64,000 nucleotides of DNA from Candidatus Uhrbacteria bacterium CG10_big_fil_rev_8_21_14_0_10_50_16 (GCA_002774875.1 PCYM01000001.1:118153-182152), one strand, 5' to 3'. Positions 16,835 to 48,009 are shown, counted from the first letter of the stretch. Numbers and translations: made by a program. The notes: generated by a model not told the origin, from the letters alone.

Positions 16835-16918
16835 GTGACCTCAGAGCCCGCAAGGCGGGATTCTGGGCAGAGAAAGTGACCCGTGCGCTTGTTCTGCTCA
16901 GAAGAGATAAGACTACTT

Positions 16919-17566
16919 ATGGAACTACCTATTTTACACATTATTGCAGAGACGTTTATTCAGGTGGCGCATGCGTCAACGACTGTCGCGGAATCCGCGG
17001 AGGTGTTGGATGTGGTCAACCAAGGGTTTGTAGTGGCGACAGAGGTCCCTCATATTGCAGAAGGGGATTTATTAGGATCGTTTGGGATTGACCTCAAGTT
17101 GTTTCTTGCTCAGCTCGTGAACTTTTTGGTGGTGCTGGGTGTGTTATGGATGTTTGCGTACAAACCATTGCTTAAGCTCATGAAGGAGCGCACGCAGAAA
17201 ATTGAGGAAGGTGTTAAGCGTGCGGATGAGATGGATATGCGTATGAAGGCGCTTGAATTAGAACGAGATGAAGTATTGGAAAAGGCACGTTTAGAGGCAC
17301 GAGAAGTGGTAAACGAAGCTGAGAAGTTGGCTGTAGAAAAGGCAGAAGCACTCGTGCAACGATCAAAAACGGAGGTAGGTCGCTTACTTGAAACAAGTAA
17401 GAAGCAACTTGGCGCACAAAAAGTTCAGATGATGCGAGAGGCGCAGGAGGAAATGACAGCCCTTATCCTTACCGTCGCTCAGCATGTTACCGGTGGGGCG
17501 ATCGACGAAAAGGCTGCGGCAAAACAAACAGAGAAGGCACTGACAGATGCCATGAAGAATCTATGA
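16919..17566 (+). CDS. atpF: F0F1 ATP synthase subunit b, with N-terminal extension
   Basis: TM helix followed by a long charged coiled coil (KERTQKIEEGVKRADEM..); start uncertain (16883 or 16919). Confidence 0.7.
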   Translation: MELPILHIIAETFIQVAHASTTVAESAEVLDVVNQGFVVATEVPHIAEGDLLGSFGIDLKLFLAQLVNFLVVLGVLWMFAYKPLLKLMKERTQKIEEGVKRADEMDMRMKALELERDEVLEKARLEAREVVNEAEKLAVEKAEALVQRSKTEVGRLLETSKKQLGAQKVQMMREAQEEMTALILTVAQHVTGGAIDEKAAAKQTEKALTDAMKNL

Positions 17567-17946
17567 AAGTAACTGTCGAAGATTACGGTCGTCTGGTCAT
17601 GGAAACCTGTGGAGCATCTGCTGGAACGCAGCTCGACAAACGACTTCAGGAAGTATTACAACTCATGCGGCTGCGTGGGGACGAGCACCTCACTCATCGA
17701 TTGGCAGGTGCGGTCACGCGTGCGTGGGAGCAACAAAATGGTGGCACCGTGTCCATGCAGATGGCAACAGAAGACGAGAAGCTCGTGCAATCTATTGCAA
17801 AGAAACTCAAGCGTCCCGTGGAAGACATTCGCGTGCTCATTGATCCGACGTTAATCGCTGGCGCTCTGGTACGAGTGGGAAACACGGTGATTGATGGGAC
17901 CGTCGCAGGTCAGTTCGATAAGTTGAAGCAACATCTAGCAACATAA
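17563..17946 (+). CDS. atpH: F0F1 ATP synthase delta subunit (short, 127 aa)
   Basis: Operon position between b and alpha; C-terminal OSCP-like segment (IDPTLIAGALVRVGNTVIDGTV). Confidence 0.6.
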   Translation: MKVTVEDYGRLVMETCGASAGTQLDKRLQEVLQLMRLRGDEHLTHRLAGAVTRAWEQQNGGTVSMQMATEDEKLVQSIAKKLKRPVEDIRVLIDPTLIAGALVRVGNTVIDGTVAGQFDKLKQHLAT

Positions 17947-17949
17947 GGT

Positions 17950-19461
17950 ATGGCAACGTCAAAAACGGTTATTCTCGAGTCGCTCAAAAAACAGCTTGAA
18001 GGATTTTCTCCAAGTACAGAAGCCGTGTCCGTAGGAACGGTGATTGAAGTTGGAGATGGAATCGCACGTATCTCTGGTTTAGAGGAGGCACAGGCGTCCG
18101 AGATCGTGGAGTTCCCAGGTGGAACCTATGGGGTATTGTTGAACTTGGAAGAGGATTCCGTGGGTGCGATTATTTTAGGGGCGTATCGTCATATTAAAAA
18201 AGGTGACACCGTTAAGCGCACGGAGCGTATTTTGTCGGTTCCCGTGTCTGAGGAGATGATAGGGCGTGTGGTGGATCCACTGGGAGTTCCAAAAGATGGA
18301 AAGGGTGCCTTGCCACAGGATCACTTTGAGCCGATCGAGAAAGTTGCACCGGGTGTTATGACACGTCAGTCTGTGCATGAACCGCTGCAAACAGGTATCA
18401 AGGCTATTGACGCTATGATCCCAATTGGCCGTGGCCAGCGCGAGTTGATTATTGGTGACCGTCAAACAGGAAAGACGGCTATTGCTATTGATACAATTTT
18501 GAACCAGAAGGGACAGGGCGTTGTGTGTATTTATGTGGCAATCGGACAAAAAGAGTCAAAAATTGCAAAATTGGTAAAGCGATTGGAGGACGCGGGTGCC
18601 ATGGAATACACGATCGTTGTTTTGGCGGGAGCATCTGACCCATCGGCGCTTTGGTATATTGCGCCATACGCAGGTGCGTCGATAGGAGAGTTTTTCATGA
18701 ACAAAGGCCAAGACGTGCTCGTGGTTTACGACGATTTATCTAAGCAGGCCGTGGCGTATCGAGAAATTTCTTTATTGCTACGTCGACCACCAGGACGCGA
18801 GGCCTATCCTGGAGATGTGTTTTACCTACACTCTCGTCTATTGGAGCGAGCCGCAAAGTTGAATGATAAATACGGTGGAGGATCCATGACCGCCTTGCCA
18901 ATTATTGAAACACAGGGAGGCGATGTGAGTGCCTATGTGCCTACCAATGTGATTTCTATCACGGACGGACAGATTTATTTGGAGTCGGACCTTTTTTATA
19001 AGGGTCAACGTCCTGCGTTAAACGTGGGATTGTCCGTGTCGCGTGTGGGATCGGCAGCGCAAACGAAAGCAATGAAATCCGTCGCAAAACAGCTGCGTTT
19101 GGACTTGGCACAGTATCGCGAGTTGGAAGCGTTCTCGCAGTTTGCGTCTGATTTGGATGAGCAAACACGTGCATCTATTGAACGCGGAAAGCGAACAACA
19201 GAATTGTTGAAGCAAGGACAGTATGTGCCGTTGTCCGTTCCAAGTCAGGTGATGTCTATCTTGGCCGTAACAGAAGGTTACTTGGATGCTGTTCCTGTGG
19301 AGCGTATTCAAGAATGGGAGACCGCTTTCTTGGGGTATATGTCCACCATGCACGAAGACCTTGTTGCAGAAATTGCAACCACTCTTAAGTTGGAGGATGA
19401 CGTGAAGGAAAAACTTGTTGGCATTATTGAAACATTCACTCGTGACTTTGTAAGCGCGTAA
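17950..19461 (+). CDS. atpA: F0F1 ATP synthase alpha subunit
   Basis: Walker A GDRQTGKT; 503 aa. Confidence 0.95.
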
Positions 19462-19471
19462 AGGGCCATCT

Positions 19472-21768
<2,297 letters not shown>

Positions 21769-21771
21769 TCT

Positions 21772-22194
21772 ATGGCAGCCAAGATTCAATTCTCCATTGT
21801 GACACCAGAGAAAACCGTTCATCAGGCGGAGGTTGATTCGGTTCGTGTGACCACGACCCTTGGAGAAATTGAAATACTTTCGCAGCATATTCCACTCGTG
21901 GCAGAACTCAAACCGGGTTCTGTGGCGATAACGGATGATGGTGCAGAGCGTTTGATTGCGGTCTCAACGGGATTTGTGGAGGTCCGACCAGACAATTCCG
22001 TGATTGTGCTGGCAGATACGGCAGATCGCGCAGAAGATTTGGATTTGGCGGCGATCGAGAAAGCACAAGAGGCGGCAAAACAGGTTATGGAAGAGAAACA
22101 AAATGTAGATGAGGAGGCCTATGCGCACGCGGCGGCTTCCTTGGAACGCGAGCTGGCACGGGCGCGTGTTGTAAGAAAACAGACCCGTCACTAG
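21772..22194 (+). CDS. atpC: F0F1 ATP synthase epsilon subunit
   Basis: Operon position and epsilon-like N-terminal beta-sandwich sequence. Confidence 0.85.
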   Translation: MAAKIQFSIVTPEKTVHQAEVDSVRVTTTLGEIEILSQHIPLVAELKPGSVAITDDGAERLIAVSTGFVEVRPDNSVIVLADTADRAEDLDLAAIEKAQEAAKQVMEEKQNVDEEAYAHAAASLERELARARVVRKQTRH

Positions 22195-22208
22195 GATCAA
22201 AAAGCTAA

Positions 22209-22237
22209 TAAACACGGTTGATACGCCGTGTTTTTTA
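22209..22237 (+). terminator. atp operon intrinsic terminator (aacacgg..ccgtgtt plus T6)
   Basis: Hairpin plus TTTTTT directly after atpC. Confidence 0.6.
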
Positions 22238-22373
22238 GGTATAACCTTCTTTAGTCGACAAGGTGGACAGTGGGGTTCGTTGTGACTCGGTGAAGGTTGT
22301 TCGAGGGGAGTTAGACGAGCATTTCTGTACTATGGGGTATCCGAGGCATGAGTAGGATTCTGTAGGGTACCCG

Positions 22374-22822
22374 GTGGATGACATCGCGACGCGCAACCTG
22401 GCTCAGGATGTGCACGACAAGACGGTGATGGGTGAACGGATCATGGGGTGGATCCAGGCGTGCATCCAACTGCACAGTTGTCGCCAGATCGTGATCACGC
22501 TAAACGCTGGCGACCTGAGGAGTGAGTTCCGGGCCGCGGTGCTTTTGTGAATCGTGAAACAGTTTCCTCAGCAGCTAGGCATCACTTTTGTGAGTGTGAA
22601 CGTCGGAGAATACTCGGCGTTCGAGACACGGGACGAAGAAACGCAACAGCATAAAATGGATCTTTTGCGTGCAGCCGAGCAGGTCTCACAAACATATCCT
22701 GACATGGAGGTCAATTGATTCTTGTGCACATTGAAGATGATCAAACAATCTCCTTTGAAGACGTGGGGCGAGAGTCAATAAACACCCAGTTCTCCTCCAT
22801 TCAAGATTCGATCGAAGTGTAA
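22374..22822 (+). pseudogene. decayed gene remnant of unknown family: continuous reading frame with one in-frame TGA (22548-22550) and one +1 frameshift (~22712-22716)
   Basis: Three protein-like segments in register (..IVITLNAGDLRSEFRAAVLL* IVKQFPQQLGITFVSVNVGEYSAFETRDEE..YPDMEVN then LILVHIEDDQTISFEDVGRESIN..); no ATG start; lies in the G+C-rich island. Confidence 0.4.
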
Positions 22823-22867
22823 TTACAAAGCAGGCCGAGAGGTCTGTTTTTTATAAACTCGCCGTGA

Positions 22868-22896
22868 TTGACAAGCGTGAAAGAAAAAGGTATAGA
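22868..22896 (+). promoter_or_regulatory. sigma70-like promoter TTGACA, 17 nt spacer, TATAGA, upstream of the small-ORF pair
   Basis: TTGACA 22868-22873, TATAGA 22891-22896. Confidence 0.4.
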
Positions 22897-22943
22897 AGTG
22901 GCACCCAAGCGCAACAAATGCGTATTGGAACGGTGGAGTTGCG

Positions 22944-23189
22944 ATGACACTGGGAGACTTGTTGAGGGATTTGCAGGAGATCGTGCGCCGCGTGCTCAAG
23001 AACGCAAACGCGGTGGGATCAAGGTTCACCCGGTACGCAGAACTCAAGGAGGAGCTCCTGGCAGCTCTTCGTGCGGAGCTGCGGATCGGGTCTATCCAAG
23101 AGGCACATGCGTTGCCTGTCACGACCACGCTGAGCGATCAGGTGGCCAACTTGTTTCGTTCGCTGAGTCGTTACGCTGCGGCGCTCTAG
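22944..23189 (+). CDS. small orphan ORF A (81 aa, predicted all-helical), G+C-rich
   Basis: ATG preceded by GGTGGAG; MTLGDLLRDLQEIVRRVLKNANAVGSRF..; no family recognised. Confidence 0.4.
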   Translation: MTLGDLLRDLQEIVRRVLKNANAVGSRFTRYAELKEELLAALRAELRIGSIQEAHALPVTTTLSDQVANLFRSLSRYAAAL

Positions 23190-23230
23190 AAGCAGCTCGT
23201 CCCACCCCCACCAACCGCGAAGGAGCGGAC

Positions 23231-23545
23231 ATGACAAAAATGGTAAGAGAGGCGCTGCGGCGCGCAGAACGGATTCAGGGGATCGCCACCGACTCAAGGG
23301 CAGAGATCCCGATGGGGTGGGAAGACGCGCTCGCTGGGCTGGTGGATGACCTCATGGTTGCCATCTTCCGTCAGTGTGGCGTTCGTGATGCCGACGCGTT
23401 GACGGACGACCAGCTGGGAGAACCTCTTGACGAGGACTCGAGCCTCGCGTTCGACGCGCTCGTTACCCATGGGCAGAAGGTGACGCCGAGCAGGCTCTCA
23501 CTTCTCTCGGCTCCGATCCGACCTCCCCGAGGCTGGAGGCCATGA
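23231..23545 (+). CDS. small orphan ORF B (104 aa, acidic), G+C-rich
   Basis: ATG at 23231 preceded by AAGGAG; MTKMVREALRRAERIQGIATDSRAEIPMGWEDALAGLVDDL..; the upstream part of the long 22868 ORF runs through the promoter and is not credited. Confidence 0.4.
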   Translation: MTKMVREALRRAERIQGIATDSRAEIPMGWEDALAGLVDDLMVAIFRQCGVRDADALTDDQLGEPLDEDSSLAFDALVTHGQKVTPSRLSLLSAPIRPPRGWRP

Positions 23546-23647
23546 TCAACATTGAGGCGTGCTCGCCCGACAGGTTCTCTGTCGGCTGCGAGTGCGCTCA
23601 TCTTTTTAATTGACGAGGCCCAAAATCCTCTATACACTGCCATTACT

Positions 23648-25261
23648 ATGCGTATTGGAAAAGACATTTTAAAGGAGGAGGGACAATTCTGGGGGAAAGC
23701 GATTGCGGAGGAGATTGTGCGGCAGCGTCCAGATAAGGATGTGTATGTTGTGTCCTCGGGAATTAGCCCCTCAGGGCCTATTCATTTTGGAAACTTTCGG
23801 GAAATTGTGACGCAGTTTGTGGTCAAACGAGAACTGGAGAAACTGGGTAAGCGGGTGCGATTTGTGTTTGTGTGGGATGACTTTGATGCCATGCGCAAAG
23901 TGCCGGCGGGAGTTGGAGAGGAATTTGTAGAACATATCCGTAAACCGTTGTCGCGTATCCCGTCGCCCGCAGGTGAGGGAACATGGGCGCAGATCCATGA
24001 ACAGGCATTTGAAAGAACATTACAGGAGTTTGGCATTGAGACGGAATTTTTGTATCAAACAAAAACGTACGAGCAGGGAACCTACGATACATATATCAAA
24101 ACGGCTTTGCAGAAGCGTGAGGTGATTGCGCGTATCTTGTTGCGTCACATGTCGGATAAGGCAAAAGCCACCAAGGAGATTAATGAGGATGCGTTTGTGG
24201 CGTCCTATTATCCGGTTTCCATTTTCTCTACGTGGACCGACAAAGACACGACGGAGATCCTTGATTATGATGGAGAAAATCAACTCACGTATCGCTGTTT
24301 AGAAACGGGGAACGAGGAGACGATCGATCTTACAAAACAACATCAACTCAAATTTGCTTGGAAGACCGATTGGGCCATGCGATGGGCAGTGATGGGTGTG
24401 GATTTTGAATCAGCTGGTAAAGATCATAATTCGCCAGACGGATCCTTTGACGTGAGCTCGGACATTGTGCGTGAGGTGTTTGACGCAGAGGGCCCTATTG
24501 GACTTGCGTATGAGTTTATTGGCATTCAGGGATTGGGCGCAAAAATGAGTGGATCTAAGGGGAATTCGGTGACGCCTGGTCAACTCCTTGATATTTACGA
24601 GGTTCCGTTGTTGCTGTGGTTGTATTCACGTAAGCTGCCATCACAGCGATTTGATTTAGCCTTCAACTCAGAGATTTTGCGTCAGTACAGCGAGTTCGAC
24701 AGGGAAGTAGAGTTGTTGCGAACGGGCAAACTCTCCGATGTGCGGGTGGAGGCACTGCAGATTGCCGGTGCCGATAGCGCACCTTTAAATCCTATGCCAT
24801 TGCGACAAGCAATCGCGTTGGGACAGATTGTGCAATGGGATACAGAGAAAGTTGTACATATGCTTACGGCGCTGCAGATGGTTTTTGACCGTGCGAGTAT
24901 TGAGTCGCGACTTCTTAAGGCGTGTGCGTATTTGGAGACGTACAATAGGGAGGAGATGGTTGCGCTACGTGAGGGCATGAACGAGGAATACACATTGACC
25001 TTGTCAGATGATCGAAAGGCCGTCGTTGGCCGGTTGCGAACGTTTTTGGAGAGCGGGGAAAATCGAATCTCAGCGATTGAGAAAGAAATGTATGAGATTC
25101 CAAAGCAGGAGGGAATGGATGAGAAAGCCGTAAAACTTGCCCAGCGTGCATTTTTTACGGACGTCTACAACCTGCTTATTGGAAAAGATACCGGTCCGAG
25201 ACTTTCCACGTTCCTGTGGGCGGTTGATCGGCAAAAAGTGTTAGAACTGCTAAACGTGTAG
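23648..25261 (+). CDS. lysK: class I lysyl-tRNA synthetase (LysK type)
   Basis: PSGPIHFGNFRE (HIGH-class motif) and KMSGSKGN (KMSKS-class); architecture of archaeal-type class I LysRS; start at the ATG at 23648. Confidence 0.75.
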   Translation: MRIGKDILKEEGQFWGKAIAEEIVRQRPDKDVYVVSSGISPSGPIHFGNFREIVTQFVVKRELEKLGKRVRFVFVWDDFDAMRKVPAGVGEEFVEHIRKPLSRIPSPAGEGTWAQIHEQAFERTLQEFGIETEFLYQTKTYEQGTYDTYIKTALQKREVIARILLRHMSDKAKATKEINEDAFVASYYPVSIFSTWTDKDTTEILDYDGENQLTYRCLETGNEETIDLTKQHQLKFAWKTDWAMRWAVMGVDFESAGKDHNSPDGSFDVSSDIVREVFDAEGPIGLAYEFIGIQGLGAKMSGSKGNSVTPGQLLDIYEVPLLLWLYSRKLPSQRFDLAFNSEILRQYSEFDREVELLRTGKLSDVRVEALQIAGADSAPLNPMPLRQAIALGQIVQWDTEKVVHMLTALQMVFDRASIESRLLKACAYLETYNREEMVALREGMNEEYTLTLSDDRKAVVGRLRTFLESGENRISAIEKEMYEIPKQEGMDEKAVKLAQRAFFTDVYNLLIGKDTGPRLSTFLWAVDRQKVLELLNV

Positions 25262-25449
25262 TTACCATACAAACCATAGATCGAACGTTTTGAGATTGGA
25301 GAAATGACTTACCTGCTAAGGGATCACAGTCTATGGATTAGCATGATGACCTCGCGCGTTAAGTGTATTTGATGGGAATAAAACAATGCGATAGCTTGCC
25401 CATGATCACGCACGATCATGAGGAAAGAGATTTGTGCTAAAATGGTTCT

Positions 25450-26064
25450 ATGACACGCGCGGAAAAACAAACGGCCATGGAAGTTATCCACAGGGAGATT
25501 GAATGCCTCACGGCTTCTTTTTTGTGCGAGGAGCGAATTCGCACGCAGATGCTCCCCGTAATAGGGGAGGGGTCGCTTGACGCGAGGGTGATGTTTATCG
25601 GCGAGGCACCAGGGAAAAAAGAGGCGCTTACAGGCAAGCCGTTTTGCGGTGCATCGGGAAAGGTTTTAGATCAGTTGCTCACAGATACGGGTTTATCACG
25701 TGAGTCCGTGTATATTACAAATGTTGTAAAGGATCGACCGCCAAAAAATCGCGACCCTAAGCCCGAGGAGATTGAGCTCTATGGTCCGTTCCTTGATCGT
25801 CAAATTGCGCTCATACAACCAACGGTTATTGCAACACTTGGCCGGTTTTCTATGGAATATGTGATGCGTCGTTATGGTCTTGAGGAGCGGTTGGAGACAA
25901 TCTCTGGGCTTCACGGAAAGCAACATACTCTGAAAATGGAGTTTGGTACCGTCCACATGCGCCCGCTCTACCACCCAGCTGTAGCCGTGTATAATCGAAC
26001 CAGGTACAGTGAACTCTTGGCAGACATGCAGTCACTTGCCGATTTTGAACAACCAGCAACCTGA
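25450..26064 (+). CDS. uracil-DNA glycosylase, family 4-like
   Basis: GEAPGKKE motif; Cys residues in N-terminal region; ~200 aa. Confidence 0.7.
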   Translation: MTRAEKQTAMEVIHREIECLTASFLCEERIRTQMLPVIGEGSLDARVMFIGEAPGKKEALTGKPFCGASGKVLDQLLTDTGLSRESVYITNVVKDRPPKNRDPKPEEIELYGPFLDRQIALIQPTVIATLGRFSMEYVMRRYGLEERLETISGLHGKQHTLKMEFGTVHMRPLYHPAVAVYNRTRYSELLADMQSLADFEQPAT

Positions 26065-26068
26065 AGGT

Positions 26069-26656
26069 ATGCCAAACGGATCTGTGGAAGTTATTTGTGG
26101 AGGAATGTTCTCGGGGAAAACCGAGGAATTGTTGAGGCGTATTCGTCGGGAGCAGTACGCTCGACGGAAAATTCAATTATTTAAACACGGACTAGATCAA
26201 CGCTATACGGAGGGCCATGTGGAATCACACTCTTCTTTAAAGCTTCCCTCGGAGGAGGTTGCGACAGCTCAGGATCTGATTCGGCAGGTCAAGGAGGAGA
26301 CTCGTGTTGTTGGGATCGACGAGGTGCAGTTCTTTGACGACGAGATTGTGGCGGTTGCCAATCATCTGGCGGACCGTGGGGTGCGGGTGATTGTGGCGGG
26401 CCTTGACACCGACTATAAGGGCGTGCCGTTTGGTCCCATGCCACATTTAATGGCTATCGCCGAGGATGTTACAAAAATTCGTGCCGTCTGTGTATTGTGT
26501 GGCGGGCCTGCAAGTCGATCGCATCGACTCAGCCGGGAAGGGGACCAAGTGCAGGTAGGCGCGACGGATGTTTACGAGGCGCGGTGCCGATCCTGTGACG
26601 CGCTCCATGTGTGTCCTGTTCAATCAACTACAACTTCTTATGAAACGACTCATTAG
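26069..26656 (+). CDS. tdk: thymidine kinase
   Basis: P-loop GGMFSGKTEEL; C-terminal zinc ribbon (CVLCGG..CRSCD). Confidence 0.85.
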   Translation: MPNGSVEVICGGMFSGKTEELLRRIRREQYARRKIQLFKHGLDQRYTEGHVESHSSLKLPSEEVATAQDLIRQVKEETRVVGIDEVQFFDDEIVAVANHLADRGVRVIVAGLDTDYKGVPFGPMPHLMAIAEDVTKIRAVCVLCGGPASRSHRLSREGDQVQVGATDVYEARCRSCDALHVCPVQSTTTSYETTH

Positions 26657-27164
26657 TATATTCCTGTTCATTTTCTTGTTGGGCGCTGGCTGTGTATCAC
26701 CTCCTCCAACGTCGACCGTTGCGAGATCTTCTTGGTTTTTGACGCGTGCTGACAACCAACCGCTTTATGCCTTCACACCCTATTGGCAGTCGCGTGTGGA
26801 TTTTCCTGCTTACCCAGAACGTTCGCGCGTGGATGGCAATGATCGTGTGTGGCTGCAAACAGTCCCAGAGCCCGTGCGTGTAGACAATTATACCTACAAG
26901 GAAAAATTTACGTACTATCCAGACGAGGATTGGATTGTGTTTGATACAATCATTTTTGATAAGAAGGCCACTATGCCATCCAACGCCGAATTACGACAGA
27001 TCGGCAATAACACTATTGGGGTCATTCCAAATGGCAACGGCGTGTTTACCATGTTTTTTTTACAGACAGAGTCTGGACTATTTCAAATCATCCCCTATTA
27101 TGGGTCGGACGTAACGGAGCAACAAATGGAGGAGGTGATTGGACAACTGGTGGATAACACATGA
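26640..27164 (+). CDS. hypothetical lipoprotein
   Basis: MKRLISIFLFIFLLGAGC signal peptide with lipobox; overlaps the tdk 3' end by 17 nt. Confidence 0.5.
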   Translation: MKRLISIFLFIFLLGAGCVSPPPTSTVARSSWFLTRADNQPLYAFTPYWQSRVDFPAYPERSRVDGNDRVWLQTVPEPVRVDNYTYKEKFTYYPDEDWIVFDTIIFDKKATMPSNAELRQIGNNTIGVIPNGNGVFTMFFLQTESGLFQIIPYYGSDVTEQQMEEVIGQLVDNT

Positions 27165-27643
27165 TGCTGCATTTTTTAGGGAGGCGATATGCTGTCTGTC
27201 CGCGCACAGCGTTTGATGAGCGGTATATTTGGTTAGAAGGGGAGGCGTGTCACATTGTGACGCCGGTTACACAAGAGGAGCACGTGCAGCGTTGTGTGGA
27301 TCGATGGGTGGAACGTGAGGCAAGGGTGTACCTCACGCAACGTGTGCGCGCGTTGTCGCAAGAGACGTCCTGGCATGTTAAACGGGTCTCGTTTAGACGG
27401 CAGTCGACCATTTGGGGAAGTTGCAGCAGTGCCAAGAATCTGAGCCTCAATCTGCATTTAATTCACGTCGATCCATTGTTGATTGACTATGTGTTGATTC
27501 ACGAATTGGCGCACACTGTGGAGATGAATCATTCTCGTGCGTTTTGGAGACTAGTTGGTCAGTATTGTCCAGAATATCCACAGCGGAAGCGAGAATTGGT
27601 GCGTGTTCATCGAGAAATCAAAGAGGAGGCGAACATGGTCTAA
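27161..27643 (+). CDS. YgjP/DUF45-like metal-dependent hydrolase (M48-related)
   Basis: HELAHTVEMNHSRAFW HExxH-type zinc motif near the C-terminus; ~160 aa. Confidence 0.6.
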   Translation: MMLHFLGRRYAVCPRTAFDERYIWLEGEACHIVTPVTQEEHVQRCVDRWVEREARVYLTQRVRALSQETSWHVKRVSFRRQSTIWGSCSSAKNLSLNLHLIHVDPLLIDYVLIHELAHTVEMNHSRAFWRLVGQYCPEYPQRKRELVRVHREIKEEANMV

Positions 27644-27672
27644 ATCGATCGTTCTTGTGTTAAAATAGGCCC

Positions 27673-30546
27673 ATGTCAAACGTCTTAGAGGGATTAAATG
27701 AAGAGCAAATTGCGGCGGTGACCCATGCGTCAGGGCCGTTGATGATTATTGCCGGCGCTGGAACGGGCAAGACGACCGTCATGACCCGCCGGATCGCGTG
27801 GCTCATTGAGCAGGGATTGGCGGAACCGGACCAAATTTTAGCGCTGACGTTTACGGATAAGGCAGCCGCCGAGATGGAGGAACGTGTGGATCTCCTGTTA
27901 CCGTATGGGTATGTCGACTTGTGGATTTCTACATTTCACGCGTTTTGCCAGCGGATTCTACAAGAGCACGGTCTTGATGTTGGGGTTGCGCCAGACGCCG
28001 ATCTCCTCAACGAGACGGATGCCTGGTTGTTGATGCAAAAGCACTGGGACCGATTTCATCTCACGTATTACAAACCGCTTGGCAACCCAACAAAATTTTT
28101 ACAGGCGTTGCTGCAGCATATCTCGCGATTAAAAGACGAAGGTGTGATGCCATCCGATTATCGACGACACGTTGAGTCGCTCGTGGATGTGGAGACAGAA
28201 GAAATGCGTCGACTGTTAGAGCTTGTGCATGCGTATGAGGTGTATGAGTCAATTCTTCACGAGGCACACGCGATGGATTTTGGAGGGCTGATTCTGTATG
28301 CGCTTGCATTGCTTCGTGACCGCCCGCTTGTTCTTGTGCAGTACCAACAACAGTTTCACTACATTATCGTGGATGAGTTTCAGGACACGAACTGGGCGCA
28401 GTATGAGATTGTGCGATTGCTTGCCGCCGCCAGCCAGCAAGTCGCCGTCGTGGGGGATGACGATCAAGCGATTTATCAGTTTCGCGGGGCGTCTGTCGCC
28501 AACATTTTGGCATTCGAAAAAGACTTTCCCAATACCGCTCGCGTGGTACTCACCAAAAACTATCGAACGGTGCAGCCTATTTTGGACAAAGCCTACGATT
28601 TTATTGTACAGAACAATCCGCACCGACTAGAGGTCTCTTTACAGGCGACACATGGCCTTTCAAAACAACTCATAAGCCAGGTAGGAGATGAGGGAACGGT
28701 CAAACACCTACATGCGAGAATAGTGGAAGCGGAGGTACAGATGGTGCTGCGGGAAATGCTTGCGCTCAAACAATCCACGGATTGCGATTGGAGCGACATG
28801 GCTCTTTTGGTGCGAGCGAACAGTCATGCTGAGCCGTTCTTGGAGGGGATGGACACTATTGGGATTCCGTATACGTTTTTAGCTATGCGAGGGCTGTACA
28901 GAAAACCCGTGGTCTTGGACGCCATTGCATTGTTGCGGGCGATTGACGATCCTTTTGATGCACCAAGTTTGTATCGCGTTTTCTCACATCCGGTTATTGG
29001 TATTCCTGAGCAGGACTTATTGGTACTCACGCATACGGCAAAGAAAAAAGGAATGGCAATAATGGACGTGTTGCAACTGTCAGATGTCACTATCTCGTCT
29101 GAAGGTGTTGCGCGATTGAGCGAGTGGCAGGAATTCTTTTCTTTGATTCGTGCCTCAGCAAAACGAAGAAACGCCCTGGAGGTGCTTGCCGAAGCGTTGA
29201 AGAAATCCGGCCTTTACGGATCAATCTTGCAGTTAGATGAGGCGCAGCAACTTGAGCAATCAAGCTACCTACAGCAATTCTACGAACGTGTACGGCGATT
29301 TATTCAAACGTATGCGCACGGAAGCCTTCATTTATTTCTCGAAGCATTCGCTCTTGAGCAGTTAGCAGGCGAGGAAGGGAGTCTTTCTCTGGACCTTCAG
29401 TCCGGACCCGATGAAGTTCGCGTCATGACGGTGCACGGGTCCAAGGGATTAGAGTTTAAGTCTGTATTTTTGTTAAACATGGTGGATCGAAGATTCCCGG
29501 CGCAGCATCGACAAGATTCTTTACCTATTCCCAGTGGATTGATCAAACAAGCGCAAACAGACGGTGATCCGTTTTTAGAGGAAGAACGCCGATTGTTGTA
29601 TGTGGGCATGACGCGCGCTAAGGAGCGACTGTATTTGACGTCGGCAGATGGCTATGGCGGAGCGCGGCAAAAGAAGCTTTCGCGATTTATGATGGAGATG
29701 GGGTATGAGAAGCCGGATCTTGCGCAGACATTCCATGGAGCATCCTTGGAGACTTCTCTGTCTGTAGATCATGTTTTTCTCTCGGGAGCCAATTTACCTG
29801 TTCCTTCAACGTTTTCGTTTACGCAATTGGTGGCATACAATCATTGCCCGCTGCAGTATAAGTTTGCGCATGTGTTGAACATTCCAACCTTTGGTGGACC
29901 GGCACTTAGTTTTGGAAAGACGATGCACAATACGCTTCAAACGTTTTTTGAGACGTTTCTTGCCATGGACGCGTCTGAATCGAGTTGTTTGCCGATGACG
30001 GAAGATCAACTTATAAACGTCTATAGAGAGAAGTGGATTAATGACTGGTATCAAGACGAGCGGCAGCAAGAGGGTTATCGACAGCAAGGAGAGGAGAGCC
30101 TACGGGCGTATTATCAGATCATTCAGGAACATCCACCGAGACCGCTTTTTTTGGAACGCGGATTCACCATCAAAATTGATGACATTGTGATTCGTGGTCG
30201 CGTGGATCGAATCGACGCAATTGAGGGAGGTGTAGAGATTATCGACTACAAAACAGGCACGCCAAAAACAAAAAAGGATTTGTCCGCCACGGACAAGATG
30301 CAGCTCATGCTGTATCAGTTGGCGGCAAAAGAATTGTTTGGGTTGGAGCCAAAGCAACTCACGTTTCATTATCTCCAGGACCATTCTCATGTGTCCTTTT
30401 TGGCAACCGAACAGCAACTGGATACACTTAAGCAACGAATACGAGAAGAGGTGACGCAGATTCGTGCACGGAAGTTTGACCCTACACCGGGCTTCATGTG
30501 TCAGTACTGTGACTTTAAAGATATTTGTCCATTTAAAACTCTATGA
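27673..30546 (+). CDS. UvrD/PcrA-family SF1 helicase fused to a C-terminal PD-(D/E)xK (Cas4/AddB-like) nuclease domain with Cys cluster
   Basis: Walker A GAGTGKTT; DExx (IIVDEFQD); C-terminal RGRVDRID..IDYKTG and CQYCDFKDICP. Confidence 0.8.
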   Translation: MSNVLEGLNEEQIAAVTHASGPLMIIAGAGTGKTTVMTRRIAWLIEQGLAEPDQILALTFTDKAAAEMEERVDLLLPYGYVDLWISTFHAFCQRILQEHGLDVGVAPDADLLNETDAWLLMQKHWDRFHLTYYKPLGNPTKFLQALLQHISRLKDEGVMPSDYRRHVESLVDVETEEMRRLLELVHAYEVYESILHEAHAMDFGGLILYALALLRDRPLVLVQYQQQFHYIIVDEFQDTNWAQYEIVRLLAAASQQVAVVGDDDQAIYQFRGASVANILAFEKDFPNTARVVLTKNYRTVQPILDKAYDFIVQNNPHRLEVSLQATHGLSKQLISQVGDEGTVKHLHARIVEAEVQMVLREMLALKQSTDCDWSDMALLVRANSHAEPFLEGMDTIGIPYTFLAMRGLYRKPVVLDAIALLRAIDDPFDAPSLYRVFSHPVIGIPEQDLLVLTHTAKKKGMAIMDVLQLSDVTISSEGVARLSEWQEFFSLIRASAKRRNALEVLAEALKKSGLYGSILQLDEAQQLEQSSYLQQFYERVRRFIQTYAHGSLHLFLEAFALEQLAGEEGSLSLDLQSGPDEVRVMTVHGSKGLEFKSVFLLNMVDRRFPAQHRQDSLPIPSGLIKQAQTDGDPFLEEERRLLYVGMTRAKERLYLTSADGYGGARQKKLSRFMMEMGYEKPDLAQTFHGASLETSLSVDHVFLSGANLPVPSTFSFTQLVAYNHCPLQYKFAHVLNIPTFGGPALSFGKTMHNTLQTFFETFLAMDASESSCLPMTEDQLINVYREKWINDWYQDERQQEGYRQQGEESLRAYYQIIQEHPPRPLFLERGFTIKIDDIVIRGRVDRIDAIEGGVEIIDYKTGTPKTKKDLSATDKMQLMLYQLAAKELFGLEPKQLTFHYLQDHSHVSFLATEQQLDTLKQRIREEVTQIRARKFDPTPGFMCQYCDFKDICPFKTL

Positions 30547-39309: not shown

Positions 39310-39338
39310 AATCATACATAAATCATAAACAAACATGT

Positions 39339-39554
39339 ATGAAGGGTTGTTGCAAGAATTCTGGAGGAATCCAGATGGTCGCCTGGGTATTAATCATCGT
39401 TGGAGCTATTAACTGGGGTCTTGTTGGAGGCTTTGGATTTAACCTTGTTAACTGGATTTTCTCATTCAGTGAGGTTGTAGAAACGATCGTTTACATCCTT
39501 GTTGGAGTCTCTGGAGTGTACGCGGTATTTACGGGGTGTCACGGTAAAAAGTAG
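39339..39554 (+). CDS. DUF378-like small membrane protein
   Basis: VAWVLIIVGAINWGLVG motif; start is either 39339 or 39375. Confidence 0.5.
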   Translation: MKGCCKNSGGIQMVAWVLIIVGAINWGLVGGFGFNLVNWIFSFSEVVETIVYILVGVSGVYAVFTGCHGKK

Positions 39555-39574
39555 GCTGCCATAATTGAGAGAGA

Positions 39575-39605
39575 AACGACCATAAACACATGGTCGTTTT
39601 GTTTT
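39575..39605 (+). terminator. intrinsic terminator (aacgaccat-aaacac-atggtcgtt plus T-run)
   Basis: 9-bp stem followed by TTTTGTTTT. Confidence 0.6.
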
Positions 39606-39795
39606 AGACAAATCCGTCTGCTACATTTTACGACACAAAGTACAAGGGAGGGGAGCGAGGGTAGAGGACTACACAGAATGAGATCGCCACATACTTACCG
39701 TTAAGATATGGGAAGTTGCTAAATACAAATAGGAATTTCCGCTACGGAGATATTTTTATTTTAACTGCAAATATTTTCAAGGTAGTCCGGGACGT

Positions 39796-39819
39796 CTCAA
39801 ATCAACACAGGTCAATTTT
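39796..39819. repeat. direct repeat copy 1: ctcaaatcaacacaggtcaatttt (24 nt, exact)
   Basis: Identical 24-mer recurs at 40239-40262. Confidence 0.7.
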
Positions 39820-40238
39820 GATTTTCATAGATTTGTGAGAGGATGTTTTATCGTGTCACAATTGGCTATCTGTACAATGTGAACATGCATCAGCGCATGG
39901 AAACGCGTTAATCGGATACAATAATAACAATCTGTAGGACGTATTAAAAAGAAAGCAATCAATAGAAGCATTAACGTATATATAGATTGACTACCAAGGA
40001 ATACGTAGTCGAATCTCCCATGAGTCGTAAAAGGTATATTGCGCGACACATAGAACAAACTGCTTCGTCACGCAAGGAGGTGCTGCACCTCGCCTGTCTT
40101 CTATCCAGATTCCTTGTGTTTAAAGGGATCTTGTTCGAATGAGTGCTTTGATACCCTATCGAACCGTATATTCTCTCCCCCTGTGTTATCTGAAGCCCCG
40201 TGTCACTACAAAAGAAAAATTAACGTGCCTTACTACCC

Positions 40239-40262
40239 CTCAAATCAACACAGGTCAATTTT
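40239..40262. repeat. direct repeat copy 2: ctcaaatcaacacaggtcaatttt (24 nt, exact)
   Basis: Identical to 39796-39819, 443 bp away, in a gene-free spacer between convergent genes. Confidence 0.7.
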
Positions 40263-40282
40263 AAGCGTTAAAACAAACGAAC

Positions 40283-41506
40283 TTATTGATTAATAAGATA
40301 TTCATAAGGGTTTACGGGAATACCATTCTCCCGAACCTCAAAGTGTAGATGTGCTCCCGTTGAAAGTCCTGCACCAGGGGTTCCTGGAATTCCACCGGTT
40401 TTACCAATTGGTTGGCCTCGCTCAACAAACTGATCGGCTCTTACGTCCATTTGCGACAAATGTGCGTAGAGCGTGGCCACGCCGTTAGCGTGGATAATCA
40501 TAATGTAGTTTCCATAGCTGCGTCCTGTGAGCGCCCAGGCGACGTATCCTGGTGCGGCGGCTCGTAGCTGTGTTCCGTATGGAACGGCCATGTCGAGTCC
40601 GGAATGCTCAAAGAGATGACGGAACGGATATGTTGGGTCGTGAAACGTTGCCGTGATGACGGGGCCTGTAACGGGCCAGGACAAAATTGTCGGTCCAATA
40701 AGCTCTTGTGCTTGCTCATCTCCCTCGTCAATTTTGCGATTAACCTCCTCCTGCAATCGGAAAATTTGTGTCTGAATATATTGGCGCTCCTCACTGAGCT
40801 CACGAAGCAGCACACCAAACTGTGCCTCTGAATTCTCCGCAGCAGCTAGGAGTGAATCCTTTGCGGCCTTCTCTTGTTCTAGGTGTAGTTTTGTCTTTTG
40901 TAATTCCTCCCGCATAGAGACAAGTCGCTCTTTTTGCTCCGTTTGCTGTTCTTGTTGTGCGGACAACTGTGCACTCAACGTCTTTACGCGTTCTAGTGTA
41001 AGGGATAGATCCTCTTGCAATGTTTCTAGGTATTGTACTTGATCAAAGAACTCCGAAAATACATCATGGCCAAAAAGAACTTCAATAGGACCTGCGTCGT
41101 CTACCTGATAAAGTTCTTTGAGGACAATACCGATCATTGTGCGTGCCTCTGTGATTTGCTGTTCCGCACTTACAATCTCCTCTCGTGTTTTGTTGATCTC
41201 TAGTTCTACCTTGTCGATCGAAAGTTGCGCAGATTGAATGTCGAGCTGTGTCTTTTTGACGCGGTTTTCTAAAATGGAGAGCTCGTTTGAAAGGCTTTTT
41301 TGTTGTTGCTCAGCCTTAACGATCTTATCCTGAAACTGATCAATCTTATTGCGGATACCGTCAATTTCTGCTTGCTTGTTCTCAATGTCCGTCGAGAGTT
41401 GATCGACTGTTGTTGCGGAGACGCTTACCACAAACGCACTTGTCGCAAAAAGCGCAAGAAGAATCGGGAAAACGACGTAACGTTGGAAAAGATTCGCTTG
41501 CTGCAT
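40283..41506 (-). CDS. M23-family peptidase with N-terminal coiled coil (EnvC/LytM-like)
   Basis: Long coiled-coil N-terminal region; C-terminal M23 motifs (HxxxD-like GIDMAVPYGT; HLHFEV). Confidence 0.8.
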   Translation of the reverse strand: MQQANLFQRYVVFPILLALFATSAFVVSVSATTVDQLSTDIENKQAEIDGIRNKIDQFQDKIVKAEQQQKSLSNELSILENRVKKTQLDIQSAQLSIDKVELEINKTREEIVSAEQQITEARTMIGIVLKELYQVDDAGPIEVLFGHDVFSEFFDQVQYLETLQEDLSLTLERVKTLSAQLSAQQEQQTEQKERLVSMREELQKTKLHLEQEKAAKDSLLAAAENSEAQFGVLLRELSEERQYIQTQIFRLQEEVNRKIDEGDEQAQELIGPTILSWPVTGPVITATFHDPTYPFRHLFEHSGLDMAVPYGTQLRAAAPGYVAWALTGRSYGNYIMIIHANGVATLYAHLSQMDVRADQFVERGQPIGKTGGIPGTPGAGLSTGAHLHFEVRENGIPVNPYEYLINQ

Positions 41507-47106: not shown

Positions 47107-47124
47107 GAGCCTTCTTTTGCTATC
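47098..47124. terminator. bidirectional terminator gaaggc-ctgaga-gccttc plus T-run
   Basis: 6-bp stem overlapping the clpB stop; serves the convergent mazG-like gene as well. Confidence 0.5.
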
Positions 47125-47464
47125 GATTATCTCCGTTTCCATGCAAGACGCCGCGATCTTTGCGGGAGAGAAGTTTTTGTAAATTACGGTCGGCGAGTTC
47201 GTCTAATGTTATGTTGAGCTCCGTGGCTAGGTTAGAAATGTACCAAAGGACGTCTCCCAGTTCCTTTACGATTTCTTGTTGCTGTTCGTCCGTCATCTCT
47301 TCCCCGCCTCTGAGGATTTTTTTTACCTTTTCTGCCACCTCACCCGCTTCTCCTACGAGGCCGAGGGTTGGGTAGACGTAATTTGATCCTAAATCAGGGT
47401 AAATGGCCGTTGTGCGCGCTGTTGTTTGATAATCGTTGAATGTCATAGTAGGGGCAGTATACAC
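47120..47464 (-). CDS. MazG-like all-alpha nucleoside triphosphate pyrophosphohydrolase
   Basis: 114 aa; EAGEVAE..LGDVLWY pattern typical of the MazG/NTP-PPase fold. Confidence 0.65.
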   Translation of the reverse strand: MYTAPTMTFNDYQTTARTTAIYPDLGSNYVYPTLGLVGEAGEVAEKVKKILRGGEEMTDEQQQEIVKELGDVLWYISNLATELNITLDELADRNLQKLLSRKDRGVLHGNGDNR

Positions 47465-47502
47465 CCAAACGTGGAGAAAAAAATTGTGCGCCGAGCAGAG
47501 GC

Positions 47503-47913
47503 TCAGCGCAGGTCGTGTACTTCCAGCTTCATGGTGAGGCCGATCACCTCTCCAAGAGCTTTGAGTTGTGCAAAAAGCCCCAGTAGATCAATCTCGCCAC
47601 GCACGAATTCCAGGATGATCCTGTGGACGTTCTTGTACCAGTCGTTCAGGGTTCCGTCGTCCGGCAGCTTGAACGTGTCCCGGAACGCCGTCCACTGCCC
47701 CGCGGCGTCCTTGAAGAACTTGCGAGTGCCGTGCTGTTCTGGCCCGTAAGCCAGCATCCCTAGCTGCGCCGTGAGCCGACCCTGGACCGTGAGCGGATCA
47801 ATACAGTCCGATCGGAAATCGCGGGCCAGAGAGACCTCTCCCGGCTTGTCCATGCACAACATGAGCTGACGTCCGTTCCCATCCCATATCCGAATTACTG
47901 ACGTTGGTGGCAT
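47503..47913 (-). CDS. hypothetical protein, G+C-rich orphan (136 aa)
   Basis: ATG at 47913 preceded by AGGAGG (5-nt spacing); composition visibly G+C-richer than neighbours; the longer 171-aa ORF start is not favoured. Confidence 0.45.
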   Translation of the reverse strand: MPPTSVIRIWDGNGRQLMLCMDKPGEVSLARDFRSDCIDPLTVQGRLTAQLGMLAYGPEQHGTRKFFKDAAGQWTAFRDTFKLPDDGTLNDWYKNVHRIILEFVRGEIDLLGLFAQLKALGEVIGLTMKLEVHDLR

Positions 47914-48009
47914 GCGCACCTCCTTCTGCCCTAACGTATGCGATTTCCTCCCACTTGTCAATAAACGTTCGTTCTTTCTTGCAAATTTGATATCTGGTAG
48001 AATAACGCC

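What the first reader, a model, noticed from the sequence alone, without database searches (positions are those of the whole stretch)
22868..23545. Promoter-driven pair of small orphan ORFs (81 aa and 104 aa)
A near-consensus promoter (TTGACA, 17 nt, TATAGA) lies about 40 nt upstream of ORF A (22944-23189, basic, predicted helical). ORF B (23231-23545, acidic, AAGGAG ribosome-binding site) follows 41 nt later. A two-gene cassette with its own promoter inside a compositionally foreign island is a typical layout for toxin-antitoxin, anti-defence or phage-regulatory pairs. Neither protein matches a family I can recognise.
Basis: partly seen in the sequence, partly recalled or inferred. Interest (0 to 1): 0.6.

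Follow-up and report, generated by a model that had tools for sequence, protein, structure and literature searches.

The report
Conserved orphan two-gene operon in Uhrbacteria
The two small ORFs are real protein-coding genes with their own promoter and terminator, kept at the same chromosomal spot in a second Uhrbacteria species. They have no detectable relatives anywhere else, and nothing links them to toxin-antitoxin, defence or phage systems.

Summary
ORF A (22944-23189, 81 aa, pI 9.5) and ORF B (23231-23545, 104 aa, pI 4.9) lie in the most GC-rich stretch of the window, each behind a Shine-Dalgarno site. The window is Candidatus Uhrbacteria bacterium CG10 (CPR).

A second species, UBA11717 (LysK 80% identical), carries both genes at the same place, between atpC and lysK.
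- The ORF lengths are identical, with no indels. Amino-acid identity is 49% (A) and 63% (B), and dN/dS is 0.37 and 0.18.
- Differences concentrate at third codon positions, and only these two frames are stop-free in both genomes.
- Both promoter hexamers are identical while the 17-nt spacer has diverged.
- A 17-pair terminator hairpin after ORF B is kept in both genomes.

So this is a genuine, insulated bicistronic operon that is probably vertically inherited.

Its function remains unknown. An exhaustive HMMER search of the B profile against 1.84 billion representatives found only itself. Pfam, PHROGs, NCBIfam, PADLOC, PDB, phage, plasmid and viral-contig searches were all negative. AlphaFold models are low-confidence helical bundles.

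The toxin-antitoxin, anti-defence and phage readings have no positive support, and single-locus synteny argues against mobility. My inference is a clade-specific complex of basic A with acidic B. Interest is modest.

The parts
22827..22852 (+). Upstream terminator-like hairpin with a T-run. It ends the preceding unit and insulates the cassette on its 5' side.
   Evidence: The hairpin AAAGCAGGCC-GAGA-GGUCUGUUUU folds at -13.2 kcal/mol, z = -5.3, with 0 of 200 shuffles folding as well.
22868..22896 (+). Sigma-70-like promoter: -35 TTGACA (22868-22873), 17-nt spacer, -10 TATAGA (22891-22896).
   Evidence: The sequence is. Both hexamers are identical and the spacer length is kept in UBA11717, while the spacer sequence has diverged to 6/17 identity. 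On its own the match is no rarer than chance.
22918..22947 (+). Nine-codon upstream ORF in the leader (MRIGTVELR*). Its TGA overlaps the ORF A start codon (ATGA). Its first 13 nt are identical to the start of lysK. The significance is uncertain.
   Evidence: See (repeat D3). In UBA11717 the corresponding ATG is in frame with ORF A, and one annotation uses it as the start (89 aa). No Shine-Dalgarno site lies upstream of it.
22935..22938 (+). Shine-Dalgarno site (GGAG) of ORF A, 5 nt before the ATG.
   Evidence: The sequence is. UBA11717 has AAGGAG at the same spacing.
22944..23189 (+). ORF A: 81 aa, basic (pI 9.5), predicted as three helices. Annotated as hypothetical protein COV06_00765 (PIR47919.1).
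   Evidence: It is 49% identical to the UBA11717 orthologue with no indels, and dN/dS is 0.37. Differences peak at codon position 3, p=0.001. It is the only frame open in both genomes. The AlphaFold2 model has helices 3-23, 31-53 and 61-80, with pLDDT 57.6.
23220..23225 (+). Shine-Dalgarno site (AAGGAG) of ORF B, 5 nt before the ATG.
   Evidence: The sequence is. UBA11717 has GAGGAG in the corresponding position.
23231..23545 (+). ORF B: 104 aa, acidic (pI 4.9), helical, with a conserved Pro/Arg-rich C-terminal tail (AP-x-RPPRGWR). Annotated as hypothetical protein COV06_00770.
   Evidence: It is 63% identical to the UBA11717 orthologue P0003 with no indels, and dN/dS is 0.18. Differences peak at codon position 3, p=4e-6. 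It is the only frame open in both genomes. The AlphaFold2 model has pLDDT 53, and the tail (residues 88-104) is below 50.
23553..23607 (+). Intrinsic terminator of the A-B unit: a 17-pair hairpin (23553-23600) followed by a U-rich tail (UUUUU at 23603-23607).
   Evidence: It folds at -31.4 kcal/mol, z = -4.9, with 0 of 200 shuffles folding as well. All 17 pairs are kept in UBA11717, with 1 compensatory and 5 one-sided changes.
23610..23638 (+). Separate promoter of the downstream lysK gene (TTGACG, 17 nt, TACACT). It marks the 3' boundary and is not part of the cassette.
   Evidence: The same hexamers occur upstream of lysK in UBA11717. The ATG lies 9 nt after the -10 hexamer with no Shine-Dalgarno site, so lysK appears to be leaderless.

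Best explanation
This is a genuine, self-contained bicistronic operon in the chromosome of a Candidatus Uhrbacteria (CPR) bacterium.

The following steps are read from sequence signals conserved in two species; no expression data were examined.
- Transcription starts at a sigma-70-like promoter (22868-22896).
- It runs through ORF A and ORF B, each with its own Shine-Dalgarno site.
- It stops at a strong hairpin terminator (23553-23607), just before the separate promoter of lysK.
- Both products are small, soluble, all-alpha proteins under purifying selection.
- They belong to two families found in only two Uhrbacteria lineages.
- In both lineages the pair sits at the same position, between the ATP synthase operon and lysK.

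The following are inferences.
- The pair was already present in the common ancestor of these lineages and was inherited vertically. Its high GC content records an old acquisition or a sequence-level constraint, not a recent insertion.
- Basic A and acidic B act together as a heteromeric complex. The conserved proline/arginine-rich, probably disordered C-terminal tail of B (AP-x-RPPRGWR) is a likely docking peptide.
- The complex serves a clade-specific cellular or regulatory role, not a mobile addiction or defence role.
For: Identity of the genome:
- The self-hits are named Candidatus Uhrbacteria bacterium CG10_big_fil_rev_8_21_14_0_10.

Orthologous locus:
- UBA11717 has the order atpC - promoter - A - B - (extra ORF C) - lysK - UDG - TK.

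Coding and selection:
- There are no indels. Identity is 49% (A) and 63% (B), and dN/dS is 0.37 and 0.18.
- Differences are in excess at third codon positions.
- Only these two frames are open in both genomes.
- The codon-position GC pattern is coding-like, and the annotated frame scores best of six.

Divergence relative to neighbours:
- The neighbours are 30-86% identical at the amino-acid level.
- pS is 0.60-0.62 for A and B, against 0.67-0.80 for neighbours. That is within roughly 2 standard errors for such short genes.

Expression signals:
- The promoter hexamers are identical while the spacer has diverged, and the Shine-Dalgarno sites are kept.
- The terminator is kept, with one compensatory change.
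- A terminator lies upstream of the cassette.
- lysK has its own conserved promoter.

Restricted distribution:
- A word-indexed search of 5.8 billion proteins with the B profile found only the two orthologues.
- An exhaustive HMMER search of 1.84 billion representatives found only the family itself, plus one low-complexity artefact.

Protein properties:
- The charges are opposite: pI 9.5 (A) and 4.9 (B).
- Both models are helical, and the tail of B has low confidence.
Against: - No expression data were examined.
- The -10 hexamer TATAGA lacks the canonical final T, and the consensus match alone is no better than chance.
- Only two lineages are available, so conservation rests on a single comparison.
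- Formation of an A-B complex is inferred only from co-transcription, co-conservation and opposite charge. The structure models are of low confidence (pLDDT 53-58).
- ORF A was searched only with the word-indexed tool, which missed even its 49%-identical orthologue. More distant relatives of A may therefore exist.
- Neutral vertical inheritance does not explain why GC3 stays at 0.62-0.71 in both lineages when the genomes sit near 0.48-0.55.
- The locus is variable. UBA11717 has ORF C, and the window has ORF58 and ORF54. This pattern is compatible with repeated insertions at the site.
Confidence: 0.7

Rival explanations
1. This is the reader's proposal: a toxin-antitoxin, anti-defence or phage-regulatory pair. 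For example, it could be a reverse-order type II module in which basic A is the toxin and acidic B, through its disordered C-terminal tail, is the antitoxin.
For: - Two small co-transcribed genes have their own promoter.
- The two proteins carry opposite charge.
- B has a low-confidence, probably disordered C-terminal tail, as many antitoxins do.
- The composition is atypical.
- The surrounding locus gains and loses small orphan ORFs.
Against: - There is no significant match to any toxin, antitoxin or defence model in Pfam, NCBIfam, PADLOC or PHROGs.
- There is no PDB sequence match or fold match.
- No DNA-binding domain was detected, and neither genome has a palindromic operator at the promoter.
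- Nothing matches in phage, plasmid or viral-contig collections.
- The pair is single-locus and syntenic in two species, and ORF B was found nowhere else among about 15 billion proteins. This is unlike the patchy, multi-copy spread typical of such modules.
- There are no paralogues in the 64-kb window.
Confidence: 0.12
2. The cassette is a domesticated remnant of an old horizontally acquired element. It would be moron-like: a promoter-gene-terminator unit of foreign composition, left by a phage or integrative element from a GC-richer donor. It would have inserted next to lysK before the two lineages split.
For: - GC is 0.59-0.63 and GC3 about 0.70, against a genome at 0.48.
- The unit is bounded by a promoter and a terminator.
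- Neighbouring lineage-specific orphans are also GC-rich: ORF58 in the window, and ORF C and a 125-aa ORF in UBA11717.
- A perfect 13-nt direct repeat, ATGCGTATTGGAA, brackets 717 nt that contain A, B and the terminator. The chance probability at region level is about 0.02.
- The cassette sits at a boundary. The ATP synthase genes upstream are 30-66% identical, and the genes downstream are 67-86% identical.
Against: - There is no integrase, no tRNA and no att-like structure.
- No donor or relative appears in phage, plasmid, viral or metagenome searches.
- Homology with UBA11717 runs straight through the left copy of the 13-nt repeat, and UBA11717 does not have the repeat.
- Six such closely spaced 13-mers occur in the window, so the repeat may be coincidence.
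- This reading concerns origin and does not exclude the best explanation.
Confidence: 0.2
3. The ORFs are spurious. A GC-rich non-coding stretch, for example a structured RNA, would be open in several frames by chance.
For: - GC-rich DNA has few stop codons. A 225-aa ORF (22868-23545) and several antisense ORFs of 92-101 aa also overlap the region.
- No homologues were found in the first searches.
Against: - dN/dS is well below 1, and there are no indels across about 1.2-1.3 synonymous substitutions per site.
- Differences are in excess at third codon positions.
- The A and B frames are the only ones stop-free in both genomes. The 225-aa frame is broken in UBA11717.
- Shine-Dalgarno sites are conserved at 5-nt spacing.
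- There is no Rfam match at E<=1.
Confidence: 0.03
4. The pair encodes accessory subunits or regulators of a neighbour, either the F-type ATP synthase upstream or the class I lysyl-tRNA synthetase downstream.
For: The position between atpC and lysK is conserved in both species.
Against: - Terminators separate the cassette from atpC and from lysK, and lysK has its own conserved promoter.
- In UBA11717 an unrelated ORF C lies between B and lysK. In the window an extra 620 nt lies between atpC and the cassette.
- The more distant Paceibacterota lysK locus (L008) has no A or B homologue.
- The only ATP-synthase-related similarity is a non-significant PDB hit (E=1.8).
Confidence: 0.05

Closest known systems
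Lineage-restricted (orphan) small-protein genes of CPR/Patescibacteria genomes, annotated as 'hypothetical protein'
   Same: - The products are short soluble proteins with no Pfam or NCBIfam domain.
- They are confined to a narrow clade.
- GenBank already lists them as hypothetical proteins: COV06_00765 and COV06_00770 in this genome, DEB00_00340 and DEB00_00345 in UBA11717.
   Different: The coding status and the transcription-unit boundaries are backed here by cross-species evidence: dN/dS, a promoter footprint and a covarying terminator. The pair is also the sharpest GC outlier in the window.
Type II toxin-antitoxin modules with the toxin gene first (higBA, hicAB and mqsRA layout; recalled from general knowledge)
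   Same: - Two small adjacent genes are co-transcribed.
- The first product is basic and the second acidic.
- The second product has a probably disordered C-terminal tail.
   Different: - No recognised toxin fold or antitoxin DNA-binding domain was found.
- There is no operator palindrome at the promoter.
- The intergenic gap is 41 nt, with independent Shine-Dalgarno sites.
- The pair is single-locus, syntenic and confined to its clade, not mobile and patchy.
Phage 'morons': autonomous promoter-gene-terminator units of deviant base composition inside prophages (recalled from general knowledge)
   Same: The unit has its own sigma-70-type promoter and its own intrinsic terminator. Its GC content differs clearly from that of the flanking genes.
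   Different: It is not embedded among phage genes. Its neighbours are ATP synthase, lysK, UDG and TK. It has no phage or viral-contig relatives.

Membership tests
Type II toxin-antitoxin module | Two small adjacent genes transcribed as one unit | tested here: met
   The layout is promoter, ORF A, a 41-nt gap, ORF B, terminator. It is conserved in two genomes.
Type II toxin-antitoxin module | The toxin belongs to a recognised toxin fold or family (RelE/ParE, MazF, PIN, HicA, Doc/Fic, HEPN, GNAT, Zeta and others) | tested here: not met
   There are no significant hits in Pfam, NCBIfam, PADLOC or PHROGs. The best PDB sequence hits have E>=0.013 and are unrelated helical proteins. Foldseek gives nothing at E<=0.001, but the models are of low confidence.
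Type II toxin-antitoxin module | The antitoxin has a DNA-binding domain (HTH, RHH, AbrB or Phd/YefM) and a palindromic operator lies at the promoter | tested here: not met
   No DNA-binding family was detected. No inverted repeat of 8 nt or more lies within the promoter and leader region in either genome. The domain test is limited by the low-confidence structure models.
Type II toxin-antitoxin module | Patchy, often multi-copy distribution associated with mobile elements | tested here: not met
   The pair occupies a single syntenic locus in two Uhrbacteria. ORF B was not found elsewhere among about 15 billion proteins. There are no paralogues in the window and no plasmid, phage or viral matches. 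The distribution of ORF A was tested less sensitively.
Type II toxin-antitoxin module | One product is toxic and the partner neutralises it | not testable with these tools
   This needs expression of A alone, B alone and A+B in a surrogate host.
Known anti-phage defence systems (PADLOC-DB v2) | Significant match to a defence-system protein model | tested here: not met
   Only sub-threshold noise appeared for A: JetA at E=0.007 (13 bits) and pAgo at E=0.037. Nothing appeared for B or for the UBA11717 orthologues.
Phage moron / prophage gene | Autonomous promoter-gene-terminator unit with deviant base composition | tested here: met
   
Phage moron / prophage gene | Located within a prophage, or homologous to phage genes | tested here: not met
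   The neighbours are housekeeping genes. PHROGs, INPHARED and IMG/VR searches were all negative.
Structured non-coding RNA (Rfam) | Match to a covariance model, with an RNA-like and not codon-like substitution pattern | tested here: not met
   There is no Rfam hit at E<=1 across 22000-24200. The substitution pattern is codon-like.

The most novel reading that the evidence does not exclude
A and B form a previously undescribed two-protein module with new folds, confined to a small Uhrbacteria clade. It could be a new reverse-order toxin-antitoxin-like pair, or a host-interaction or regulatory complex of an episymbiotic CPR bacterium. In either case the conserved RPPRGW tail of B would dock onto a partner. 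Persistent GC enrichment would then point to selection on the sequence or the mRNA.
Probability: 0.15. Interest if true: 0.55.

Novelty: new member of a known kind. Interest (0 to 1): 0.3.

Why it matters
CPR genomes are full of small 'hypothetical' genes, and it is often doubted whether they are real. This pair shows that two such orphans are true genes under purifying selection, with conserved promoter, ribosome-binding and terminator signals.

The locus also gives a clean example of sigma-70-like promoter and intrinsic-terminator architecture in Uhrbacteria.

If the proteins turn out to form a new toxin-antitoxin-like or symbiosis-related complex, they would define two new families. On present evidence, though, this is an ordinary lineage-restricted operon of unknown role.

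Tried and rejected
1. **Structured RNA or T-box leader upstream of lysK.** There is no Rfam hit at E<=1 and no tRNA or tmRNA. The substitution pattern is codon-like.

2. **A 717-bp insertion with a 13-bp target-site duplication** (ATGCGTATTGGAA at 22918 and 23648), with the 22868 promoter as the former lysK promoter. I rejected this as the main story for three reasons.
   - UBA11717 has the same cassette, and homology runs through the left repeat copy.
   - lysK has its own conserved promoter in both genomes.
   - Six comparably spaced 13-mers occur in the window.

3. **Finding more family members.** These searches produced the following.
   - The word-indexed protein searches returned only self-hits for A and for B, and the B profile returned only the two orthologues.
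   - Both viral-contig scans found nothing.
   - The exhaustive HMMER search of the B profile returned only itself, plus a low-complexity repeat protein, P0004, which I dismissed on inspection.

4. **Structure-based annotation.** The AlphaFold2 models have pLDDT of only 53 and 58. Foldseek against the PDB gave nothing below E=2. I did not run further fold searches because the models are too weak.

5. **A and B as tandem paralogues.** The hhalign probability is 0.9%.

6. **A remnant of UBA11717 ORF C in the window, or relatives of ORF58 and ORF54 in UBA11717.** tblastn and tblastx were negative.

7. **Literature.** One search for small proteins in Uhrbacteria returned nothing relevant.

Full report
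**What is in the sequence**

The finding lies between atpC (21772-22194) and a class I lysyl-tRNA synthetase gene, lysK (ATG at 23648, ending at 25261).
- TTGACA at 22868-22873, a 17-nt spacer, and TATAGA at 22891-22896.
- ORF A at 22944-23189 (81 aa), behind GGAG at 22935-22938.
- ORF B at 23231-23545 (104 aa), behind AAGGAG at 23220-23225.
- A 41-nt gap between the two ORFs.

A is basic (pI 9.5) and B is acidic (pI 4.9). The segment is the strongest GC outlier of the whole window. Its 300-bp peak is 0.647, against a mean of 0.484 with sd 0.035.

The promoter match on its own is not statistically remarkable. The window has 15 sites with at least 10 of 12 matches, against 17.7 +/- 4.1 in shuffles. 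TATAGA also lacks the usual terminal T, which is why the standard scan did not list it.

**Which genome this is**

Exact self-hits identify the window as Candidatus Uhrbacteria bacterium CG10_big_fil_rev_8_21_14_0_10, a member of the Candidate Phyla Radiation. The two ORFs are already annotated there as hypothetical proteins COV06_00765 and COV06_00770. Identical copies occur on several groundwater metagenome contigs from ENA, JGI and Logan, all with the same gene order.

**Are the ORFs real genes?**

Yes. Within the window, both ORFs show the codon-position GC pattern of coding DNA: 0.62/0.43/0.71 for A and 0.69/0.49/0.70 for B. The annotated frame scores best of all six under a codon model trained on the window's long genes.

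The decisive evidence is comparative. A search with LysK retrieved Candidatus Uhrbacteria bacterium UBA11717 (locus L007; LysK 80% identical). Between its atpC and lysK, that genome carries orthologues of both ORFs in the same order and orientation. The comparison shows the following.
- ORF A is 81 aa in both genomes, 49% identical, with no indels.
- ORF B is 104 aa in both genomes, 63% identical, with no indels.
- Nei-Gojobori estimates give dN/dS of 0.37 (A) and 0.18 (B), with dS about 1.2-1.3.
- Nucleotide differences by codon position are 33/23/46 for A (p=0.001) and 19/23/49 for B (p=4e-6).
- Of the six frames across each ORF, only the annotated one is free of stops in both genomes.
- The overlapping 225-aa ORF and the antisense ORFs listed are therefore by-products of GC-rich sequence.
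- The amino-acid identities (49% and 63%) fall inside the range of the flanking core genes: atpG 30%, atpC 30%, atpA 55%, atpD 66%, UDG 68%, lysK 80%, TK 86%.

**The transcription unit**

The DNA alignment of the two loci shows a classic promoter footprint. Both hexamers, with one flanking base each (ATTGACA and GTATAGAAG), are identical. The 17-nt spacer keeps its length but is only 6/17 identical. The Shine-Dalgarno sites of both ORFs are retained at 5-nt spacing.

Directly after the ORF B stop codon there is a 17-pair hairpin (23553-23600) followed by a U-rich tail.
- It folds at -31.4 kcal/mol with z = -4.9.
- All 17 pairs are maintained in UBA11717, through one compensatory and five one-sided changes.

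Upstream, a second terminator-like hairpin (22827-22852; -13.2 kcal/mol; z = -5.3) precedes the promoter. Downstream, lysK has its own promoter (TTGACG, 17 nt, TACACT) in both genomes. The pair is therefore an insulated bicistronic operon.

**What the proteins are**

No search assigned either protein to a family.
- Pfam, PHROGs, NCBIfam and PADLOC gave only sub-threshold noise for both proteins and their orthologues.
- PDB sequence profiles gave nothing significant.
- DNA searches and tblastn against phage and plasmid collections were empty.
- Scans of IMG/VR and of JGI metagenome contigs with both alignments were also empty.
- A profile of the two B orthologues found only those two proteins among 5.8 billion clusters.
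- An exhaustive HMMER pass over 1.84 billion representatives found only the family itself, plus a low-complexity repeat protein that is clearly spurious.

The AlphaFold2 models are helical but of low confidence. A has three helices with pLDDT 57.6. B has three or four helices followed by a tail with pLDDT below 50, and its overall pLDDT is 53.4. Foldseek against the PDB returned nothing better than E=2. A and B are not paralogues of each other.

One caveat applies to ORF A. It was searched only with the word-indexed tool. That tool missed even its 49%-identical orthologue, because the two share no exact 5-residue word. Remote relatives of A cannot be excluded.

**Interpretation**

Shown:
- This is a real two-gene operon, insulated on both sides, that encodes two clade-restricted small proteins.
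- It is conserved in synteny between two Uhrbacteria species.
- Both proteins are under purifying selection.

Inferred:
- The pair predates the split of the two lineages. pS is 0.60-0.62 for A and B against 0.67-0.80 for neighbours. That is within about two standard errors for genes this short, and it is expected to be somewhat lower with skewed GC3.
- The basic and acidic partners probably work as a complex.
- The strictly conserved C-terminal motif of B (AP-x-RPPRGWR) is a plausible docking peptide.

The toxin-antitoxin, anti-defence and phage-regulator readings rest only on layout. Several observations count against them.
- The pair shows no family membership and no recognisable DNA-binding domain.
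- Neither genome has an operator palindrome at the promoter.
- There is no link to any mobile element.
- The phyletic distribution is narrow and syntenic, not patchy.

I put the toxin-antitoxin or defence-like reading at about 0.12.

An old horizontal origin remains possible, at about 0.2, and it does not exclude the main account. Under this reading the cassette would be a moron-like unit from a GC-richer donor. It would explain the composition, and also the other GC-rich orphans at this locus: ORF58 in the window, and ORF C and a 125-aa ORF in UBA11717.

**The 13-nt repeat**

A perfect direct repeat, ATGCGTATTGGAA, occurs at 22918 (in the ORF A leader) and at 23648 (the start of lysK). The two copies bracket 717 nt. 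This looked like a target-site duplication. I now treat it as probably coincidental, for three reasons.
- Homology with UBA11717 runs uninterrupted through the left copy, and UBA11717 does not have the repeat.
- The region-level chance probability is only about 0.02 (44 of 2000 resamples).
- Six similarly spaced 13-mers occur in the window.

**Unexplained**

GC3 stays at about 0.62-0.71 in both lineages despite more than one synonymous substitution per site. The surrounding genomes sit near 0.48-0.55. Neutral amelioration should have eroded this difference. Selection on the mRNA or the sequence, or a more complicated transfer history, would be needed to explain it.

**Verdict**

The feature is a genuine but ordinary lineage-restricted small-protein operon of unknown role. 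Interest is 0.3.

Noticed in passing
window 39796-39819 and 40239-40262: There is a perfect 24-nt direct repeat, CTCAAATCAACACAGGTCAATTTT, with copies 443 nt apart. It lies inside a long AT-rich (GC about 0.40), apparently non-coding stretch at 39310-40283. It could mark a small inserted element or a regulatory repeat.
   Followed up: no
window 16883-22194 versus 23648-30546 (compared with L009): There is a sharp discontinuity in divergence from UBA11717 across the cassette. The ATP synthase genes are only 30-66% identical (atpG 30, atpC 30, atpA 55, atpD 66). The genes downstream are 67-86% identical (lysK 80, TK 86, UvrD 80). This suggests replacement or accelerated evolution of the atp operon in one lineage.
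   Followed up: partly
window 23610-23650; L007 3955-3995: lysK appears to be leaderless in both genomes. The -10 hexamer TACACT is followed by only 9 nt before the ATG, and there is no Shine-Dalgarno sequence.
   Followed up: no
window 22240-22853: About 620 nt lie between the atpC terminator (22205-22238) and a second terminator (22827-22852). This stretch is absent from UBA11717. It holds ORF58 (22374-22550; GC 0.59, GC3 0.78, coding-like; called as a gene by JGI and ENA) and ORF54 (22554-22718). Neither has a family hit.
   Followed up: partly
L007 3596-3913 and L009 8622-8999: UBA11717 carries two further GC-rich orphan ORFs that the window lacks. ORF C (105 aa) lies between ORF B and lysK, and a 125-aa ORF lies just after lysK. 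Neither has a family hit. The lysK neighbourhood seems to be a hotspot for gain and loss of small GC-rich genes.
   Followed up: partly
window 22918-22930 and 23648-23660: A perfect 13-nt direct repeat, ATGCGTATTGGAA, links the ORF A leader to the lysK start codon. The left copy opens a 9-codon upstream ORF whose TGA overlaps the ORF A ATG (ATGA). The region-level chance probability is about 0.02, and UBA11717 does not have the repeat.
   Followed up: yes
window 47461-48018 (minus strand): This is the second strongest GC peak in the window (0.613). It coincides with a 171-aa orphan ORF (47503-48018, minus strand) that has no Pfam hit. The ORF lies next to a MazG-like pyrophosphohydrolase gene (47120-47464, minus strand).
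   Followed up: partly
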